In this document: piece by piece, positions 60 through 3,823 of the stretch
Numbering within the stretch: position 1 is the first letter of the stretch
Layout of the letters: every line of letters starts with the position of its first letter
NCBI GenBank assembly: GCA_047620825.1
Contig: JBLHOC010000003.1
Span: 1-47,541 of the forward strand
Length of the DNA stretch: 47,541 nt
Source of the DNA: Bacteroidia bacterium
Lineage (GTDB): Bacteria > Bacteroidota > Bacteroidia > NS11-12g > UBA9320
Direction of reading: 5' to 3'
Position numbers and translations under genes: made by a program
Notes under the pieces: model-generated
Seen by the model: only the letters and a program-made list of their open reading frames with translations
Databases searched by the model: none
What the model was told of the DNA's origin: nothing

Positions 60-89
60 AAAGCCCACGCCTTGGTGTGGGCTTTTTTT
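60..89. terminator. Intrinsic terminator between convergent genes
   Basis: AAAGCCCACGCC-TT-GGTGTGGGCTTT hairpin followed by a T-run on +. Confidence 0.85.
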
Positions 90-106: not shown

Positions 107-520
107 CTACATTGGGTGACAATGGAACATGAGTTCTTTTGTTTCGCTTGTACCAGCATGGTCGGTAATCGCCTCAATTTTTAACATCATATTCGAATGA
201 TAATTAACGTTATTTACCCAGTGTTCATGAATGTGAAACGTTTTACTATCAATGTGCTCGTGATTATTAAATACAACAGTATCGCTGTTTGATGTGTTGG
301 TAATTGAGACTTTATAACCATGTAGATCTTTCGTATATGAAATCATACCATCGATAAAAACGGTATCTCCTTTTCCGTACATGGCACCAGATATTGGTGA
401 AGAAAAGTCAAACACGACAGACGGGTCTTCCACAATTGTAGGATCATCATCTTTACAAGCTGAAAAAAGTGTTGCCGTTATGGCAAGCATTATGAATATG
501 GTGTTTTTTAAGTTGTTCAT
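107..520 (-). CDS. His-rich lipoprotein, DUF4625-like Ig-fold, putative metal-binding
   Basis: Lipobox FSAC-KDDD; His clusters HEHIDSKTFHIHEHW and C-terminal FHCHPM; 4-nt overlap with the upstream gene. Confidence 0.65.
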   Translation of the reverse strand: MNNLKNTIFIMLAITATLFSACKDDDPTIVEDPSVVFDFSSPISGAMYGKGDTVFIDGMISYTKDLHGYKVSITNTSNSDTVVFNNHEHIDSKTFHIHEHWVNNVNYHSNMMLKIEAITDHAGTSETKELMFHCHPM

Positions 521-1443
521 TTTTTATTTGATTTTAGTAGGTGTAAGAATTGAATGTTAAAAAATTGTGTGGGTTTTGTGTACCCGTTTGAAATTGAATG
601 ATGTATTGGGAAATGGTAATAAGCTCTGATTCCGAAGTCTGAAAAATAGACGGATGAACCAATGACGGCATTGAATAATTGCACACCACTTAATGTATTT
701 GCTTCTTTCCTCGATGCGCTAATCTGATCTTTTGCTCTATGCATTTGATACAAACCAACTTGAGGAATCAGTGTTAACTTTTCTCTTTTAATTCTATAAA
801 AGAATAGATTGTTAGAAGAAACTTCTTGACCAAATCGATAGTCAATGTTGTTAGCTGCATTAAGTCGAGTATTGATTTCTGAGCTAAAACCAAAATTCAA
901 TCTTCGCCAAGAAAAAGTAGAGTTTAAACCGGCACCCCAAGCACCTGTTCCGAGCTGAAGGTTTGGCAAACTACTTTGATTGTCAGAATCAATTTTGCCA
1001 GTTGGTATGGATATGTGGCTACCAATAAACCAGTTTGTTTGTTTGTCAGACATGGTCCCCCCTTTGGATACTAGGGCATAATAGACCTGTAATTGGGCAT
1101 CGCCAAAACCTTTCAGTTCAATCGTCTCGTTTGACATCTTTAAACTGTGTTGTTTGATTGGCAACATGCCAGATAGAAACCAACGTTTGGAGATGTAATA
1201 CCTTCCCCATAATGTTAAAGCGTTAAAATTATCGACGCTTGTTTCATCGGTTTCGTCTGTAAAAAGAGCAGGATGCAGGGTTTCAAAACGGTTGTTCTGA
1301 AAATGTAGTCCAATCATATGTCGTTGTTGGAATGGGATATACCCAAACCCAACGCCACCAGCTGAACATCCGCAAGCATCACACGCTTGTGAAACAGTAC
1401 TGTACATTAACAGTAGTGCAACACACACGAATCGTGTACGCAT
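517..1443 (-). CDS. Outer-membrane beta-barrel transporter-like protein with N-terminal CxxCxC motif
   Basis: Signal peptide ending SQA, mature N-terminus CDACGC; GFGD, IPTG and LQLGTG motifs; alternating aromatic strands. Confidence 0.7.
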   Translation of the reverse strand: MRTRFVCVALLLMYSTVSQACDACGCSAGGVGFGYIPFQQRHMIGLHFQNNRFETLHPALFTDETDETSVDNFNALTLWGRYYISKRWFLSGMLPIKQHSLKMSNETIELKGFGDAQLQVYYALVSKGGTMSDKQTNWFIGSHISIPTGKIDSDNQSSLPNLQLGTGAWGAGLNSTFSWRRLNFGFSSEINTRLNAANNIDYRFGQEVSSNNLFFYRIKREKLTLIPQVGLYQMHRAKDQISASRKEANTLSGVQLFNAVIGSSVYFSDFGIRAYYHFPIHHSISNGYTKPTQFFNIQFLHLLKSNKK

Positions 1444-1501
1444 ACTTTTGTTTAATAAATAAGTGTTTAAAATTGGTAGGTTAGATGGTGTCGGAAGTGA
1501 C

Positions 1502-1855
1502 CTAAGTGATGGGAGGTCTAAAGATTGAATTTGTGTGTTCCGAACTAAGTTTATCCTGAATAGACGGATAATCCTTTACATGGTTATTGTTGGTAAAGTC
1601 CTTTTTGGGGTGATCACACAAGATGAAACTCAGTAGTTTGAATTCCACAGTATATTGATTCTGTTGGTTGACATCTTTGATTTTTTTCTCCAAAACACAA
1701 TGACCACCACATTCCGAATCTGGAACGAAACGATTTTCACATAATTCCGCAGCAATGTAGTTTTGCTCAACTTGAAACCAAGTGTAGATTCCAATGTTGA
1801 TCAAAAAGCCAGAGCAAAGAAACGCAATGAGCGCTATTGAGAGTGTTTTTTTCAA
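1502..1855 (-). CDS. Cys-rich membrane-anchored leader protein (DUF2946/CruR/CutF-like) with C-terminal IFRPP
   Basis: N-terminal hydrophobic helix, LCENRFVPDSECGGHCVL, terminal SIFRPPIT. TTG at 1855 preferred over 1903 because a TAACTTTG promoter element lies at 1861-1868. Confidence 0.7.
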   Translation of the reverse strand: MKKTLSIALIAFLCSGFLINIGIYTWFQVEQNYIAAELCENRFVPDSECGGHCVLEKKIKDVNQQNQYTVEFKLLSFILCDHPKKDFTNNNHVKDYPSIQDKLSSEHTNSIFRPPIT

Positions 1856-1860
1856 CGAGA

Positions 1861-1889
1861 CAAAGTTAGGTATGATCAAAAAGTACAAA
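1861..1889 (-). promoter_or_regulatory. Bacteroidota primary-sigma promoter (-7 TAACTTTG, -33 TTTG)
   Basis: TAnnTTTG at 1861-1868 and TTTG at 1886-1889, 17-nt spacer. Confidence 0.6.
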
Positions 1890-1957: not shown

Positions 1958-3082
1958 TTGAATATGAAGCGATTTTCGACATACGGATTGTTAGGGTTGT
2001 GCCTCACAGTTTTGGTGGTTTTTCAAAGCTGTAAAGATGACGATAGTGTTGTTATTGATCCAGGTGGAATCGACAACGAAGACGTTTATTTTCCCCCAAT
2101 AATTGGGGATGATTGGGCAACAATATCTGCTCAATCTTTAGATTGGGACACCTCAAAGATTTCGGATTTGTATACTTTTTTGGATGATGGAGGTACACGT
2201 GCCTTTATAGTGGTTAAAAACGGTAAGATTGTGTTAGAACATTATGGCGGCCTCGACATTTTAAAGCGTGGTGCGTTTACCGATAAGTCGGTGTGGTATT
2301 GGGCTTCAGCAGGTAAAACATTAACATCGTTTTTAGTCGGACAAGCACAAGAAGACGGTCACCTAAGCCTGTCAGACAAAACATCAGATTACCTAGGAGA
2401 TTGGACAAGTTTAACTAAAACACAACAAGATAAAATTACTATCAGACACCAGTTAACCATGTCTAGTGGTTTGGATGATAGTGGAAATTCGGACTGTACA
2501 GAAAAGGCATGCATAACCTATAAGGCCGATCCAGGTACGAGATGGGCGTATCACAATGCACCATATACTTTACTGGATAGTGTGATTCAACAATCGACCA
2601 ACAGTAGTTTCGACGACTATTTCAACAACCGGTTACGTAACCCAATTGGTATGGATGGCTATTGGACTTATTTGGACTATAATCACGTTTATTTTAGCAC
2701 AGCTCGTTCCATGGTTCGCTTCGGATTGGTGACACTTAATAAAGGCAAGTGGGATCAACAAACGATATTAGGCGACACCAATTATTGGGCGGACATGGTG
2801 AACACGTCCCAAGACATCAACAAGTCATACGGATACCTCTGGTGGTTAAATGGCAAAGCATCTCATATGTTGCCTGGACTTCAATTAGAAATTAAGAGAC
2901 CAATATCAGAAAATGCACCTTCAGATATGATTTCAGGATTAGGCAAAAATGGCCAGTTATTAAATATCATCCCGAGTCAAAACCTAATCGTTATACGAAT
3001 GGGTGACAATCCAGACAATGCACTTGTACCAACAAAGTTTCTAAATGACATGTGGGGAAAAATCAACAACGTCATTCAATAA
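1958..3082 (+). CDS. Serine hydrolase lipoprotein (class C beta-lactamase/esterase family)
   Basis: Lipobox FQSC; SxxK (SAGK), YxN (YHN), LTMSSGL, YGYLWW, GKNGQ; start may be ATG 1964. Confidence 0.9.
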   Translation: MNMKRFSTYGLLGLCLTVLVVFQSCKDDDSVVIDPGGIDNEDVYFPPIIGDDWATISAQSLDWDTSKISDLYTFLDDGGTRAFIVVKNGKIVLEHYGGLDILKRGAFTDKSVWYWASAGKTLTSFLVGQAQEDGHLSLSDKTSDYLGDWTSLTKTQQDKITIRHQLTMSSGLDDSGNSDCTEKACITYKADPGTRWAYHNAPYTLLDSVIQQSTNSSFDDYFNNRLRNPIGMDGYWTYLDYNHVYFSTARSMVRFGLVTLNKGKWDQQTILGDTNYWADMVNTSQDINKSYGYLWWLNGKASHMLPGLQLEIKRPISENAPSDMISGLGKNGQLLNIIPSQNLIVIRMGDNPDNALVPTKFLNDMWGKINNVIQ

Positions 3083-3106
3083 GAACCACTGAGTCGTTGG
3101 AATAAC

Positions 3107-3114
3107 TAGATTTG
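3107..3114 (+). promoter_or_regulatory. -7 promoter element TAGATTTG
   Basis: Exact TAnnTTTG, 4 nt before GTG 3119. Confidence 0.5.
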
Positions 3115-3118
3115 TCCG

Positions 3119-3823
3119 GTGCAAATATTATCAATCTTAAACCCAACCGTTTTTGTTGGAGAATTTGAGTGGCGAGAGCCAGTAACTACGTTAACAGACT
3201 TTTTAGTCGCTGTCGTTTGCTGGACCGCTTTTTACTTATTTGTGAAACTTAAAACATCAAAATCACCTACGTACGTATGGTTTAAAAACTACTTTTTAGT
3301 TTTTGCAATTGGCATGACCAGTGCCGCATGGTTGGGTCATGGTTTCCAAGCATATTTATTCCCTGAGTTAAAATTAATTGGATGGATTTGCAGTGCAACA
3401 GCCTTGATGTTTTTACAAATGGGTTCATTTAAACAGATTTCAGTACACCTATCTGAGCGATTAACGCGATACCTACCTAAGTGGTTCGTCATTCAATGGG
3501 TGCTTGCAATAACACTTATGGGTTACAACATTTCTGGCGGCATTGAGCAAGCCTTTAAGATAACCCAAGTCAACTCTGTTTTAGCATTATGGGGGTTTGT
3601 ACTCCCTATGCATATTTATGCCTATCGGAAGCTTCAAATTCAAGGGAGTAAAATTGTAATAGGAGCCCTGCTGTATAGCACAGTTCCTGGCGTTGTTTAC
3701 ACCAACCAAATAAGCTTTTCACATTGGTTTAATTACCACGACATCAGCCATGTTTTAATGGCAGTATTTATGACAATAATGTTCTTAGGGTTGTACCAAC
3801 TCGTTAAACCCACAAACCCATAG
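3119..3823 (+). CDS. Multi-pass membrane protein (DUF6962-like; possible CREST-type hydrolase)
   Basis: About 7 hydrophobic helices; EPVTTLTD, LGHG and FNYHDISH (HxxxH) motifs. Confidence 0.65.
   Translation: MQILSILNPTVFVGEFEWREPVTTLTDFLVAVVCWTAFYLFVKLKTSKSPTYVWFKNYFLVFAIGMTSAAWLGHGFQAYLFPELKLIGWICSATALMFLQMGSFKQISVHLSERLTRYLPKWFVIQWVLAITLMGYNISGGIEQAFKITQVNSVLALWGFVLPMHIYAYRKLQIQGSKIVIGALLYSTVPGVVYTNQISFSHWFNYHDISHVLMAVFMTIMFLGLYQLVKPTNP

What the first reader, a model, noticed from the sequence alone, without database searches (positions are those of the whole stretch)
107..1889. Metal-sensing leader protein with RPP arrest motif heading a CxxCxC beta-barrel and His-rich lipoprotein operon
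Seen: promoter, then a 117-aa protein with a membrane helix, C-x9-C-x3-C and terminal IFRPPIT; then a barrel whose mature N-terminus is CDACGC; then an overlapping lipoprotein with HxH clusters ending FHCHPM. Known: proteobacterial DUF2946 leaders (Bordetella CruR, Rhodobacter CutF) pair a CxxC motif with a C-terminal RAPP-type stalling motif to control downstream copper genes. Inference: this is a Bacteroidota counterpart with a different Cys spacing. It would control a minimal barrel-plus-lipoprotein metal (possibly Cu) acquisition unit that has no TonB-dependent receptor or MbnP/MbnH gene in the operon.
Basis: partly seen in the sequence, partly recalled or inferred. Interest (0 to 1): 0.75.

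Follow-up and report, generated by a model that had tools for sequence, protein, structure and literature searches.

The report
Bacteroidota copper-operon leader peptide family
A small membrane-anchored protein with three fixed cysteines and a proline-proline tail heads this probable copper-uptake operon and thousands like it in Bacteroidota; it looks like an unnamed counterpart of the copper-sensing, ribosome-stalling leader peptides known from Proteobacteria, but nobody has tested this.

Summary
The minus strand carries a promoter-like TTTG-17 nt-TAACTTTG, then a 117-aa protein (TTG start) with a membrane helix, C-x9-C-x3-C and the end IFRPPIT. A 308-aa barrel (mature end CDACGC) and an overlapping 137-aa lipoprotein ending FHCHPM follow.

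The leader belongs to a large family with no Pfam or NCBIfam model. It has 7262 cluster representatives and occurs in 142 of 401 sampled Bacteroidota genomes. In 154 sequences the Cys spacing never varies. A PP lies in the last 15 residues in 152, and the Cys-to-PP distance stays at 60-78 although the linker is unconserved and modelled as coil.

Genes upstream are unrelated. Genes downstream are copper genes: TonB receptors (27 of 58 leaders), MbnP (19, 15 of them with MbnH), SCO1, PCuAC, YHS, and relatives of this barrel. This is the cargo reported for DUF2946 (CruR/CutF).

No homology to DUF2946 is detectable, so this is an analogue. A second Bacteroidota family, DUF6660, has the same aromatic-[QH]-PP tail in front of CusA/CzcA pumps.

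Stalling and regulation are inferred, not shown. RNA folding after the leader was no stronger than at control junctions. A C-rich, G-poor stretch after the stop codon was specific. Best reading: a copper-sensing regulatory leader (0.55).

The parts
1886..1889 (-). -33-like TTTG of the putative promoter
   Evidence: Read. It lies 17 nt upstream of the -7 box. The consensus for the phylum is recalled; the -7 box consensus is quoted from PMC9723704.
1861..1868 (-). -7 box TAACTTTG (TAnnTTTG type), 5 nt before the TTG start
   Evidence: The same box starts at -13 in 7 of 11 related loci. In the phylum sample it lies at -11 to -17 in 15 of 57 leaders.
1502..1855 (-). Leader gene, 117 aa from TTG 1855 (the open frame reaches ATG 1903 = 133 aa); stop TAG 1504-1502
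   Evidence: Family of 7262 cluster representatives. No Pfam or NCBIfam model.
1775..1843 (-). N-terminal membrane helix (about residues 21-43 of the 133-aa frame), preceded by KK
   Evidence: AlphaFold helix 14-45, pLDDT about 90. Hydrophobic columns are conserved. The N-in/C-out topology is inferred from the charges.
1697..1741 (-). Sensor motif LCENR-x6-C-x-G-x-C (C55, C65, G67, C69)
   Evidence: Invariant in 150 of 150 aligned sequences. Spacing of 9 in 154 of 154.
1526..1696 (-). Spacer: helix 68-82, conserved F93, then an unconserved stretch 94-126 modelled as coil
   Evidence: Information content mostly under 1 bit for columns 94-126. pLDDT about 60 and no secondary structure. The last Cys to first Pro distance is held to 60-78 residues.
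1511..1525 (-). Tail motif I-F-R-P-P, two residues before the stop
   Evidence: Columns 127-131: I/V, F 138 of 150, H/R/Q, P 148 of 149, P 149 of 149. PP lies 1-10 residues from the end, mode 2.
1444..1501 (-). 58-nt spacer between leader and barrel, C-rich and G-poor (C 0.28, G 0.04 in the first 50 nt), no strong fold
   Evidence: z -0.71; z +0.50.
517..1443 (-). Outer-membrane barrel, 308 aa, signal peptide then CDACGC (codons at 1383-1366)
   Evidence: BLAST-related to 21 of 23 other ~300-aa proteins that lie next to leaders or after MbnP-MbnH. C21 and C24 are invariant in 22 sequences. Pfam Phenol_MetA_deg is hit by 6 of 22 members, not by this one.
107..520 (-). Lipoprotein, 137 aa, lipid Cys22 followed by KDDD, His clusters, C-terminal FHCHPM (127-110)
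   Evidence: AlphaFold 7-strand beta-sandwich, pLDDT 87. DUF4625 at E 6.9e-4, 20.3 bits, below the cut-off of 27.
60..85 (.). GC-rich hairpin between the operon end and the convergent upstream gene; probable two-way terminator
   Evidence: 11 pairs. The T-run is on the + strand only.

Best explanation
The 117-aa protein is a regulatory leader that couples copper status to expression of the barrel and lipoprotein behind it, while it is still being made.

Proposed course (steps 1-2 rest on sequence; steps 3-5 are inferred):
1. The gene sits directly behind a sigma-A type promoter with almost no 5' untranslated region.
2. Its N-terminal helix inserts N-in/C-out. The conserved LCENR...C-G-C hairpin therefore reaches the periplasmic face.
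3. When the ribosome reaches the terminal F-R-P-P, about 60-70 residues separate the cysteines from the peptidyl-transferase centre. That is enough to span the exit tunnel and the translocon.
4. Peptide-bond formation at Pro-Pro is slow. Whether the pause persists or is relieved depends on the state of the cysteine motif (copper-bound, free or oxidised), as described for CutF and CruR.
5. The paused ribosome covers the stop codon and the start of the C-rich, G-poor spacer. That decides whether transcription or translation goes on into the barrel gene. A Rho-type attenuation as in CruR is my favoured output, and start-region accessibility is the alternative.

Because the cargo is acquisition machinery, I expect expression under copper scarcity and shut-off by copper. 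The cargo here is a small outer-membrane barrel with an N-terminal CxxC and a probably surface-exposed His/Cys/Met-rich Ig-like lipoprotein. I read them as a copper uptake pair.
For: **Family signature**
- C-x9-C-x3-C in 154 of 154 sequences.
- PP in the last 15 residues in 152 of 154.
- Tail columns I/V-F-[HRQ]-P-P carry 2.5-4.3 bits, while the 30 columns before them carry mostly under 1 bit.
- The Cys-to-PP distance is held at 60-78, mode 65-68.
- The last 40 residues are modelled as coil at pLDDT about 60, whereas residues 21-80 are at about 90 or more.

**Context**
- 56 upstream neighbours are unrelated housekeeping genes, except inside composite copper clusters.
- My hand tally over 58 leaders in 55 of 60 sampled loci counts the first three downstream genes: a TonB receptor in 27, MbnP in 19 (15 with MbnH), YHS/SCO1/SOD in 2, an AraC regulator with YHS in 2, a barrel of this family without the others in 5 (one with SCO1 + PCuAC), another gene set (DUF2911, COX1) in 1, nothing in 2.
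- This is the cargo list reported for DUF2946 leaders: TBDT, PepSY_TM, Sco, PCuAC, MbnPH (PMC9426467, passages read).
- Several genomes carry 2-3 copies, each before its own unit.

**An independent family with the same tail**
- In DUF6660, 29 of 34 loci examined held an ORF with a CxPFxxCxxC motif. All 29 end in [WLF][QHK]PP plus 2-6 residues, with a 40-45 residue spacing. A CusA/CzcA-like pump follows in 25 of the 29.
- hhalign aligns only the last 24 columns of the two families.

**Promoter and spacer**
- A promoter box lies directly before the start codon.
- The first 50 nt after the leader stop are C-rich and G-poor (C 0.194, G 0.132, C>G in 46 of 65). Control junctions in the same loci show C 0.165, G 0.167, C>G in 28 of 68.

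**Factors and fusions**
- EF-P and Rho genes are present in this genome.
- No longer, fused forms were found (weak evidence).
Against: - No experiment exists: no toeprint, ribosome profile or reporter, and no RNA run holds this DNA.
- The tail is not RAPP. HPP and RPP are not, to my recollection, among the strongest EF-P-dependent pause motifs.
- RNA structure around the leader stop (mean z -1.25, 16 of 65 below -2) is no stronger than at control junctions (mean z -1.34, 22 of 68 below -2). The window's own spacer is unstructured. So no output element has been identified.
- The C>G test counts related loci, so its p-value is overstated.
- Bacteroidota do not use Shine-Dalgarno pairing, so the CutF output (unmasking a ribosome-binding site) cannot be copied directly.
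- The membrane helix and the Cys hairpin are well conserved and confidently folded, with a polar Q in the helix in 85 of 148 sequences. That would also suit a stable membrane protein with partners.
- 47 of 68 leaders have a same-strand upstream gene, and 11 of those gaps are under 25 nt. The gene is therefore not always first in its transcript.
Confidence: 0.55

Rival explanations
1. The small protein is a stable, membrane-anchored periplasmic copper-binding component (a chaperone, sensor or adaptor). It works with whichever outer-membrane importer is encoded next to it. The C-terminal F-x-P-P would then be a docking motif for a partner, or a protease signal, and not a translational pause site.
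For: - The helix and Cys hairpin fold confidently (pLDDT 90 or more over residues 21-80).
- There is strong conservation within and just after the membrane helix, including a polar Q.
- The gene sometimes lies inside clusters, 4-8 nt after SCO1, SOD or a receptor gene.
- No specific RNA output element was found.
Against: - The same tail occurs in DUF6660, which has a different sensor and the opposite cargo (efflux pumps). A docking motif would then have to serve unrelated partners.
- The 30-40 residues before the tail are unconserved in sequence but fixed in length, and are modelled as coil.
- The cargo is modular: receptor, MbnPH, barrel, or an AraC regulator.
- There are no fused forms (weak evidence).
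- The two readings are not exclusive: CruR and CutF are also exported proteins.
Confidence: 0.28
2. The leader works as proposed, but the metal for this particular operon is not copper. It could be zinc or nickel, since the lipoprotein is above all His-rich.
For: - His clusters (HEH, HIHEH, H-C-H) suit Zn or Ni as well as Cu.
- The lipoprotein family is small (18 clusters) and has no characterised member.
- Earlier notes of this scan describe DUF2946-type leaders before zinc operons (unchecked).
Against: - The leader family's cargo is copper-specific wherever it can be named: MbnP/MbnH, SCO1, PCuAC, YHS, COX1.
- The barrel's relatives sit behind MbnP-MbnH, and 22 of 24 barrels examined carry a C-[DE]-x-C motif at or near the mature N-terminus.
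- The lipoprotein ends in H-C-H-P-M, which has Cys and Met ligands typical of Cu(I).
Confidence: 0.12
3. The conserved PP tail has no function in translation or binding, and the gene is simply a conserved small membrane protein of unknown role that happens to be co-located.
For: Nothing specific, other than the absence of experiments.
Against: P130 and P131 are the most conserved columns after the cysteines across 150 sequences of 23-55% identity. The motif also recurs in a second family.
Confidence: 0.05

Closest known systems
CruR (Bp2923) of Bordetella pertussis, prototype of Pfam DUF2946 (PF11162); PMC9426467 (abstract and passages read)
   Same: - A small exported protein placed before copper-import genes.
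- A Cys motif and a C-terminal x-x-P-P a few residues before the stop.
- A fixed spacing between the two.
- The same cargo spectrum (TonB receptor, PepSY_TM, Sco, PCuAC, MbnPH).
- Cargo that is acquisition machinery, so shut-off by copper is expected.
- A C-rich spacer that would fit its Rho-dependent output.
   Different: - No sequence relationship: no PF11162 hit and hhalign 10.7%.
- C-x9-C-x3-C instead of CxxC.
- [IV]F[HRQK]PP instead of RAPP.
- Spacing of 60-78 instead of 45 residues.
- A signal-anchor helix rather than a cleavable signal.
- A short spacer (58 nt here) instead of 162 nt.
- The phylum lacks Shine-Dalgarno use.
CutF of Rhodobacter capsulatus (DUF2946); preprint 10.1101/2025.02.05.636593 (abstract and discussion read), PMC9973294 (listing only)
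   Same: - Periplasmic copper sensing by the nascent chain during co-translational export.
- A pause at C-terminal prolines near the stop codon.
- The long Cys-to-PP distance here fits such a transmembrane geometry better than 45 residues does.
   Different: - CutF uses PPP and EF-P, and unmasks a Shine-Dalgarno site for a detoxifying oxidase that copper switches on.
- Here the cargo is uptake, and no masking stem-loop is seen in the window.
Pfam DUF6660 (PF20365), uncharacterised Bacteroidota family (no paper holds the name)
   Same: - Same phylum and same size class.
- N-terminal hydrophobic helix and a Cys cluster.
- Fixed spacing, and an aromatic-[QHK]-P-P tail 2-6 residues from the stop.
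- Placed directly before metal transport genes.
- It is the nearest named cluster in the ESM Atlas, at score 0.90.
   Different: - A different sensor (His-rich region plus CxPFCxCxCC).
- Spacing of 40-45 residues.
- The cargo is CusA/CzcA efflux pumps.
- No HMM hit from the window's family.
- hhalign aligns only the tail (14%).
RAPP/RAGP arrest peptides of the Sec/YidC monitors (SecM, ApdA, ApdP and the RQH family); PMC10987492 (passages read), PMC10951233 (listing only)
   Same: N-terminal localisation signal, a variable linker, a conserved proline-containing motif next to the C-terminus, and placement before the regulated gene.
   Different: - Those monitor protein export, not a metal.
- The listed motifs (RAPP, RGPP, HAPP, HGPP, QAPP, RAGP...) have a small residue between the basic residue and the prolines. 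That small residue is missing here.
MbnP/MbnH copper-acquisition operons and Pfam Phenol_MetA_deg (PF13557) barrels
   Same: The window's barrel is BLAST-related (E 1e-29 to 4e-11) to the third gene of leader-MbnP-MbnH-barrel operons. 6 of 22 family members hit PF13557.
   Different: - This operon has no MbnP/MbnH. A lone MbnP lies elsewhere in the genome.
- The window's barrel itself has no PF13557 hit.
- The N-terminal C-[DE]-x-C-G motif is not, to my knowledge, a described feature of that Pfam family.

Membership tests
DUF2946 / CruR-CutF (PF11162) | Match to the Pfam model | tested here: not met
   No hit for the window protein at E up to 1, nor for 10 diverse members at E up to 10. hhalign against six DUF2946-like proteins of the same phylum gave probability 10.7%, with only the membrane helix aligned.
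DUF2946 / CruR-CutF (PF11162) | Conserved CXXC (CutF: CXXXC) motif | tested here: not met
   The motif is C-x9-C-x3-C in 154 of 154 sequences.
DUF2946 / CruR-CutF (PF11162) | C-terminal RAPP (or PPP) a few residues before the stop | tested here: inconclusive
   PP lies 1-10 residues from the end in 152 of 154 sequences, but the context is F-[HRQK]-PP, not R-A-PP. Some distant members have PPP.
DUF2946 / CruR-CutF (PF11162) | Fixed spacing between the Cys motif and the proline motif | tested here: met
   60-78 residues, with 114 of 152 at 65-69. The value differs from the 45 +/- 2 reported in PMC9426467.
DUF2946 / CruR-CutF (PF11162) | N-terminal export signal or N-in/C-out helix | tested here: met
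   AlphaFold helix 14-45 preceded by K/R. The topology is inferred from charge, not computed by a predictor.
DUF2946 / CruR-CutF (PF11162) | Placed before copper-homeostasis genes | tested here: met
Ribosome arrest peptide (functional class) | Demonstrated elongation arrest at the motif, and a cis effect on the downstream gene | not testable with these tools
   No RNA or ribosome-profiling data for this DNA.
DUF6660 (PF20365) | Match to the Pfam model and the CxPFCxCxCC cluster | tested here: not met
   No hit. G000 has no DUF6660 match. Only the tail aligns.
Phenol_MetA_deg (PF13557), for the barrel | Match to the Pfam model above its cut-off | tested here: inconclusive
   The window's barrel has no hit at E 0.01. 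6 of 22 BLAST-related barrels do (best E 1.1e-10).
DUF4625 (PF15418), for the lipoprotein | Match to the Pfam model above its cut-off (27 bits) | tested here: not met
   20.3 bits, E 6.9e-4. One relative reaches 31.5 bits (L009). The fold is a generic Ig-like sandwich.

The most novel reading that the evidence does not exclude
Bacteroidota have their own phylum-wide class of nascent-chain metal sensors, built on a shared arrest tail (hydrophobic-[FW]-[HQRK]-Pro-Pro, 1-10 residues before the stop). This tail has been joined to at least two unrelated sensor modules. One is the C-x9-C-x3-C family described here. It gates copper uptake and sets about 66 residues between sensor and tail, so that it reads the periplasm through the translocon. 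The other is DUF6660. It gates CusA/CzcA efflux with about 41 residues. Many of these genes would be transcribed without a 5' leader, so that the first ribosome runs right behind the polymerase. The output would work without Shine-Dalgarno masking, probably through Rho acting at a C-rich tract. That would be a new arrest motif and a new output logic for this kind of switch.
Probability: 0.35. Interest if true: 0.85.

Novelty: new variant of a known kind. Interest (0 to 1): 0.7.

Why it matters
Copper sensing by a nascent exported peptide has been shown only for two DUF2946 proteins of Proteobacteria. If this family does the same job, several things follow.

- The principle extends to a second large phylum through an independent protein family of thousands of members that has no model in Pfam or NCBIfam.
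- There would be a new proline-based tail motif to test on ribosomes.
- It would show how such a switch can act in organisms that do not use Shine-Dalgarno sites.
- The family offers a handle for annotating copper-acquisition genes in Bacteroidota. The handle is simple: whatever follows this leader is a candidate. That includes a family of ~300-aa barrels with an N-terminal CxxC, YtkA-like lipoprotein plus receptor pairs, BNR_2 proteins and DJ-1/PfpI-YHS fusions.
- The parallel with DUF6660 suggests the same for metal efflux.

Tried and rejected
- **RNA structure as the output element.** Folding of -15 to +70 nt around the leader stop gave mean z -1.25 (n 65). Junctions between downstream genes of the same loci gave mean z -1.34 (n 68), so I do not count structure as support. 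The window's own spacer is unstructured.
- **Homology to DUF2946 or DUF6660.** Not detected.
- **NCBIfam name.** I recalled a name 'HYC_CC_PP family protein' as a possible label. No NCBIfam model hit either this family or DUF6660, so the recollection stays unverified and is not used.
- **The search for related loci.** With the alignment it was not possible: no conserved 7-10 column stretch. I used the genome search and the fetch from genomes instead.
- **Fused or longer forms.** None found (weak by the tool's own note).
- **Solved structures.** No relative by sequence for the barrel or the leader. Foldseek of the lipoprotein model gave only generic Ig-like sandwiches (best TM 0.60); CopC appeared at rank 38 with TM 0.45, which I do not count.
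- **Complex prediction, barrel with lipoprotein.** No verdict.
- **Sequencing runs.** No RNA holder is listed.
- **Sigma-70 type scan.** 5 promoter-like sites found against 6.9 expected, so not informative.
- **Earlier notes of this scan.** Nothing on this genome or this family.
- **Literature.** Searches for 'DUF6660' (0 papers), for Bacteroidetes + MbnP + copper + upstream, for arrest peptide + Bacteroidetes and for Flavobacterium + copper limitation gave no paper describing this family. Subscription journals are not covered.
Full report
**What is there.** The unit lies on the minus strand. It begins with TTTG (1889-1886), 17 nt, TAACTTTG (1868-1861), then 5 nt before a TTG codon (1855). The open frame runs to the stop at 1504-1502. 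It could start at ATG 1903 (133 aa). However, in a 150-sequence alignment the column aligned with codon 17 is the first residue of most members (M 96, L 24, V 12 of 144), and 10 of 11 related loci have TTG at that spot.

After a 58-nt spacer comes a 308-aa protein with a signal peptide followed by CDACGCS (517-1443). A 137-aa lipoprotein (107-520) overlaps it by 4 nt. This lipoprotein has His clusters and ends FHCHPM. A GC-rich hairpin at 60-85 closes the unit.

**The leader is a member of a large, unnamed family.**
- Pfam and NCBIfam give nothing for the window protein, nor for ten diverse relatives at E up to 10.
- Source names are only 'hypothetical protein'.
- The nearest ESM Atlas clusters are unnamed Bacteroidota clusters.
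- A word-indexed search found only 5 relatives. A profile of 14 sequences run over 1.84 billion representatives found 7262 at E 1e-3 or better and 3085 at 1e-10 or better, nearly all of 95-190 residues.
- In whole genomes the family is present in 19 of 41 close relatives and in 142 of 401 sampled genomes of the phylum, often in 2-3 copies.

**Its anatomy is that of a sensor, a ruler and a tail.**
- In 154 sequences the spacing C-x9-C-x3-C is invariant. A PP lies in the last 15 residues in 152, with 1-10 residues after it (mode 2).
- The motif is FHPP 95, FRPP 20, FQPP 12, HPPP 8, FKPP 5, LRPP 5, and others 7.
- The distance from the last Cys to the first Pro is 60-78, mostly 65-69.
- Conservation is high from the end of the membrane helix through LCENR-KP-C-G-KC-L-KKL (columns 43-75) and at F93. 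It is very low in columns 94-126, then high again at I/V-F-H/R/Q-P-P.
- AlphaFold with this alignment gives a long helix 14-45 and a helical hairpin carrying the three cysteines (pLDDT 90 or more). From residue 94 to the end it gives a coil at pLDDT about 60.
- A folded domain would not normally combine an unconserved, unstructured 30-40 residues of fixed length with a nearly invariant terminal motif. A nascent-chain switch would.

**Context ties the family to copper.** I fetched 60 loci spread over the phylum, called ORFs by script and scanned the neighbours with Pfam.

The genes upstream (56 of 64 scanned) are unrelated: IspD, phosphoglucomutase, citrate synthase, OTCase, Omp85 and so on. 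The exception is where the leader sits inside a larger copper cluster, after SCO1, SOD or a receptor.

Downstream, by my hand tally for 58 leaders in 55 of the 60 loci, the first three genes hold:

| First three downstream genes | Leaders |
|---|---|
| A TonB-dependent receptor (often with a YtkA-like lipoprotein, PepSY_TM, BNR_2, SCO1 or DJ-1/PfpI-YHS) | 27 |
| MbnP (15 of these with the di-haem peroxidase MbnH) | 19 |
| YHS-SCO1-SOD | 2 |
| An AraC regulator followed by YHS proteins | 2 |
| A barrel of the window's kind without the others (one with SCO1 and PCuAC) | 5 |
| Another set including COX1 | 1 |
| Nothing on the same strand | 2 |

The five loci with no leader in that script do have one when non-ATG starts are allowed. 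The CruR paper lists TonB receptors, PepSY_TM, Sco, PCuAC, YcnI, CopC, MbnPH and AhpC_TSA behind DUF2946 genes (PMC9426467, passages). The overlap is close.

[quoted passage not shown] CutF pauses at a C-terminal PPP during co-translational export and thereby opens a stem-loop that hides the next gene's ribosome-binding site (preprint 10.1101/2025.02.05.636593).

The window's family shares the architecture but not the sequence. There is no PF11162 hit. hhalign against six DUF2946-like proteins that I found in other classes of the same phylum (CxxC plus SRAPP or RGPP) gives 10.7%, with only the membrane helix aligned. PF11162 itself matched 15 of 201 sampled genomes at E 0.01 or better, 2 of them over the cut-off. 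None of these were in the families labelled 'same class' as the window. I therefore treat the family as an analogue.

**A second family with the same tail.** The ESM Atlas pointed, weakly (0.90), to DUF6660.
- It occurs in 53 of 301 sampled genomes.
- Of 34 loci examined, 29 had an ORF with CxPFxxCxxC. All 29 end in [WLF][QHK]PP plus 2-6 residues, with 40-45 residues between the Cys cluster and PP. 25 of the 29 are followed at once by a CusA/CzcA-like pump.
- hhalign between the two families aligns only the last 24 columns (14%).
- No paper in the library holds the name.

So two unrelated sensor modules, with opposite cargo, share one terminal motif. That is what one expects if the tail acts on the ribosome rather than on a cargo-specific partner. 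I regard this as the strongest single argument for the regulatory reading.

**Promoter and start.** The sigma-A -7 box of flavobacteria is TAnnTTTG at -12 to -5 of the transcription start, and only 5.5% of Flavobacterium psychrophilum mRNAs are leaderless (PMC9723704, passages). Here the box ends 5 nt before the TTG. The same holds in 7 of 11 relatives. In the phylum sample, 15 of 57 leaders have the box starting 11-17 nt before the start codon, and 27 of 57 start with TTG or GTG. This predicts transcripts with almost no 5' leader. I did not expect that, and it needs 5' mapping.

**The output step is open.** Structure around the leader stop is enriched against shuffles (mean z -1.25; 16 of 65 below -2), but so is structure at control junctions in the same loci (mean z -1.34; 22 of 68). 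The window's own spacer does not fold.

What did differ is base composition. The first 50 nt after the leader stop have C 0.194 and G 0.132 (C>G in 46 of 65). Controls have C 0.165 and G 0.167 (28 of 68). The Mann-Whitney p is 1.3e-4, overstated because the loci are related. In the window the values are C 0.28 and G 0.04.

A C-rich, G-poor tract is the usual mark of a Rho loading site (general knowledge), and CruR acts through Rho. Rho and EF-P genes are present in this genome. This is a lead, not proof.

**The cargo of this operon.**
- *Barrel.* It is BLAST-related to 21 of 23 other ~300-aa proteins that lie either right behind a leader or as the third gene after MbnP-MbnH. 22 of the 24 carry C-[DE]-x-C at or near the mature N-terminus. 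C21 and C24 are invariant in 22 aligned sequences. Six of the 22 hit Pfam Phenol_MetA_deg, but the window's does not.
- *Lipoprotein.* It belongs to a small family of 18 clusters. In 15 of 22 aligned sequences the residues H66, H85, H87, H94, H96, H107, H121 and the end H-C-H-P-M are kept. In a sister clade of six, all these histidines are replaced together while the Cys stays. This points to one metal site. The model is a confident 7-strand sandwich (pLDDT 87) with only generic Ig-like neighbours in the PDB.
- *Surface exposure.* The residues after the lipid Cys (K-D-D-D) resemble the surface-export signal of Bacteroidota lipoproteins. That motif is recalled, not checked in a call. A surface metal-binding lid working with a small barrel is therefore plausible but inferred.
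- *Elsewhere in the genome.* It has one further MbnP, without MbnH or a leader.

**Verdict.** The copper link of the family is strong (I put it near 0.85). The reading as a cis-acting, proline-dependent regulatory leader is the best explanation (0.55). A stable membrane-anchored copper-binding partner is the main rival (0.28), and the two are not exclusive.

The family is not a member of DUF2946. It is a new variant of a known kind of switch, and to my searches it is undescribed. Earlier notes of this scan list many DUF2946-type leaders in other genomes but none of this family.

Noticed in passing
window 1853-1889 (-); L003-L012; L043-L102: The sigma-A -7 box lies so close to the leader's start codon that the mRNA should have a 5' leader of 0-2 nt. 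The box starts at -13 in 7 of 11 relatives, and at -11 to -17 in 15 of 57 leaders of the phylum sample. 27 of those 57 use TTG or GTG. Leaderless mRNAs with non-AUG starts would be unusual.
   Followed up: partly
L112-L146 (DUF6660 loci): Pfam DUF6660 looks like a second leader-type family. It is about 105 aa with an N-terminal helix, a His-rich stretch and CxPFCxCxCC, then 40-45 residues and [WLF][QHK]PP. It lies directly before CusA/CzcA efflux pumps in 25 of 29 loci. In one locus a Fur-family regulator gene lies just upstream (L113).
   Followed up: partly
L104-L110: True DUF2946-like leaders (CxxC plus SRAPP or RGPP 3-4 residues before the stop) occur in other classes of the same phylum. 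Two of 201 sampled genomes pass the Pfam cut-off. Three genomes (G052, G079, G177) carry both this type and the window's type.
   Followed up: partly
L067 and L089: In two loci the leader is followed first by an AraC-type regulator, then by PepSY_TM/YHS or SOD/YHS. Their tails are diverged (LQPPKLA, DNPPELV). This may be a leader that controls a transcription factor.
   Followed up: no
L044, L054, L056, L064, L074, L076: Leader-cargo units stand in series on one strand, for example leader-YHS-SCO1-SOD, then 6-7 nt, then leader-MbnP-MbnH-barrel. The leader is therefore sometimes internal to a long cluster.
   Followed up: partly
alignment A6 (P0175-P0180 against the rest): A sister clade of the lipoprotein has lost every conserved histidine at once (Y, Q, D/N, T/I, N, N, K, N) while keeping the fold-defining residues and the C-terminal Cys. 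This looks like a natural metal-site knock-out.
   Followed up: no
L111 (G000 contig C121, 1396-2139 +): The window's genome has a lone MbnP-family lipoprotein (247 aa). Its start overlaps the end of a 458-aa multi-pass membrane protein. There is no MbnH and no leader nearby.
   Followed up: no
L048, L050, L051, L060, L069, L073, L093, L096: Two kinds of protein recur right after leader-gated TonB receptors: BNR_2 (sialidase-like propeller) proteins and DJ-1/PfpI proteins, the latter sometimes fused to a YHS domain. They are candidates for handling an imported copper chelate.
   Followed up: no
window 1964-3823 (+): The divergent neighbours are a beta-lactamase-family lipoprotein (372 aa) and a DUF6962 membrane protein. 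They keep their place next to the operon in five other loci, all from genomes of the same genus (L001, L003-L006). No functional link to copper is evident.
   Followed up: no
L099, L072: A second kind of Phenol_MetA_deg barrel follows some leaders. It lacks the CxxC and instead begins RPDGHAP...VMGDHYH, a His-rich start. In L099 it is followed by SCO1 and PCuAC.
   Followed up: no
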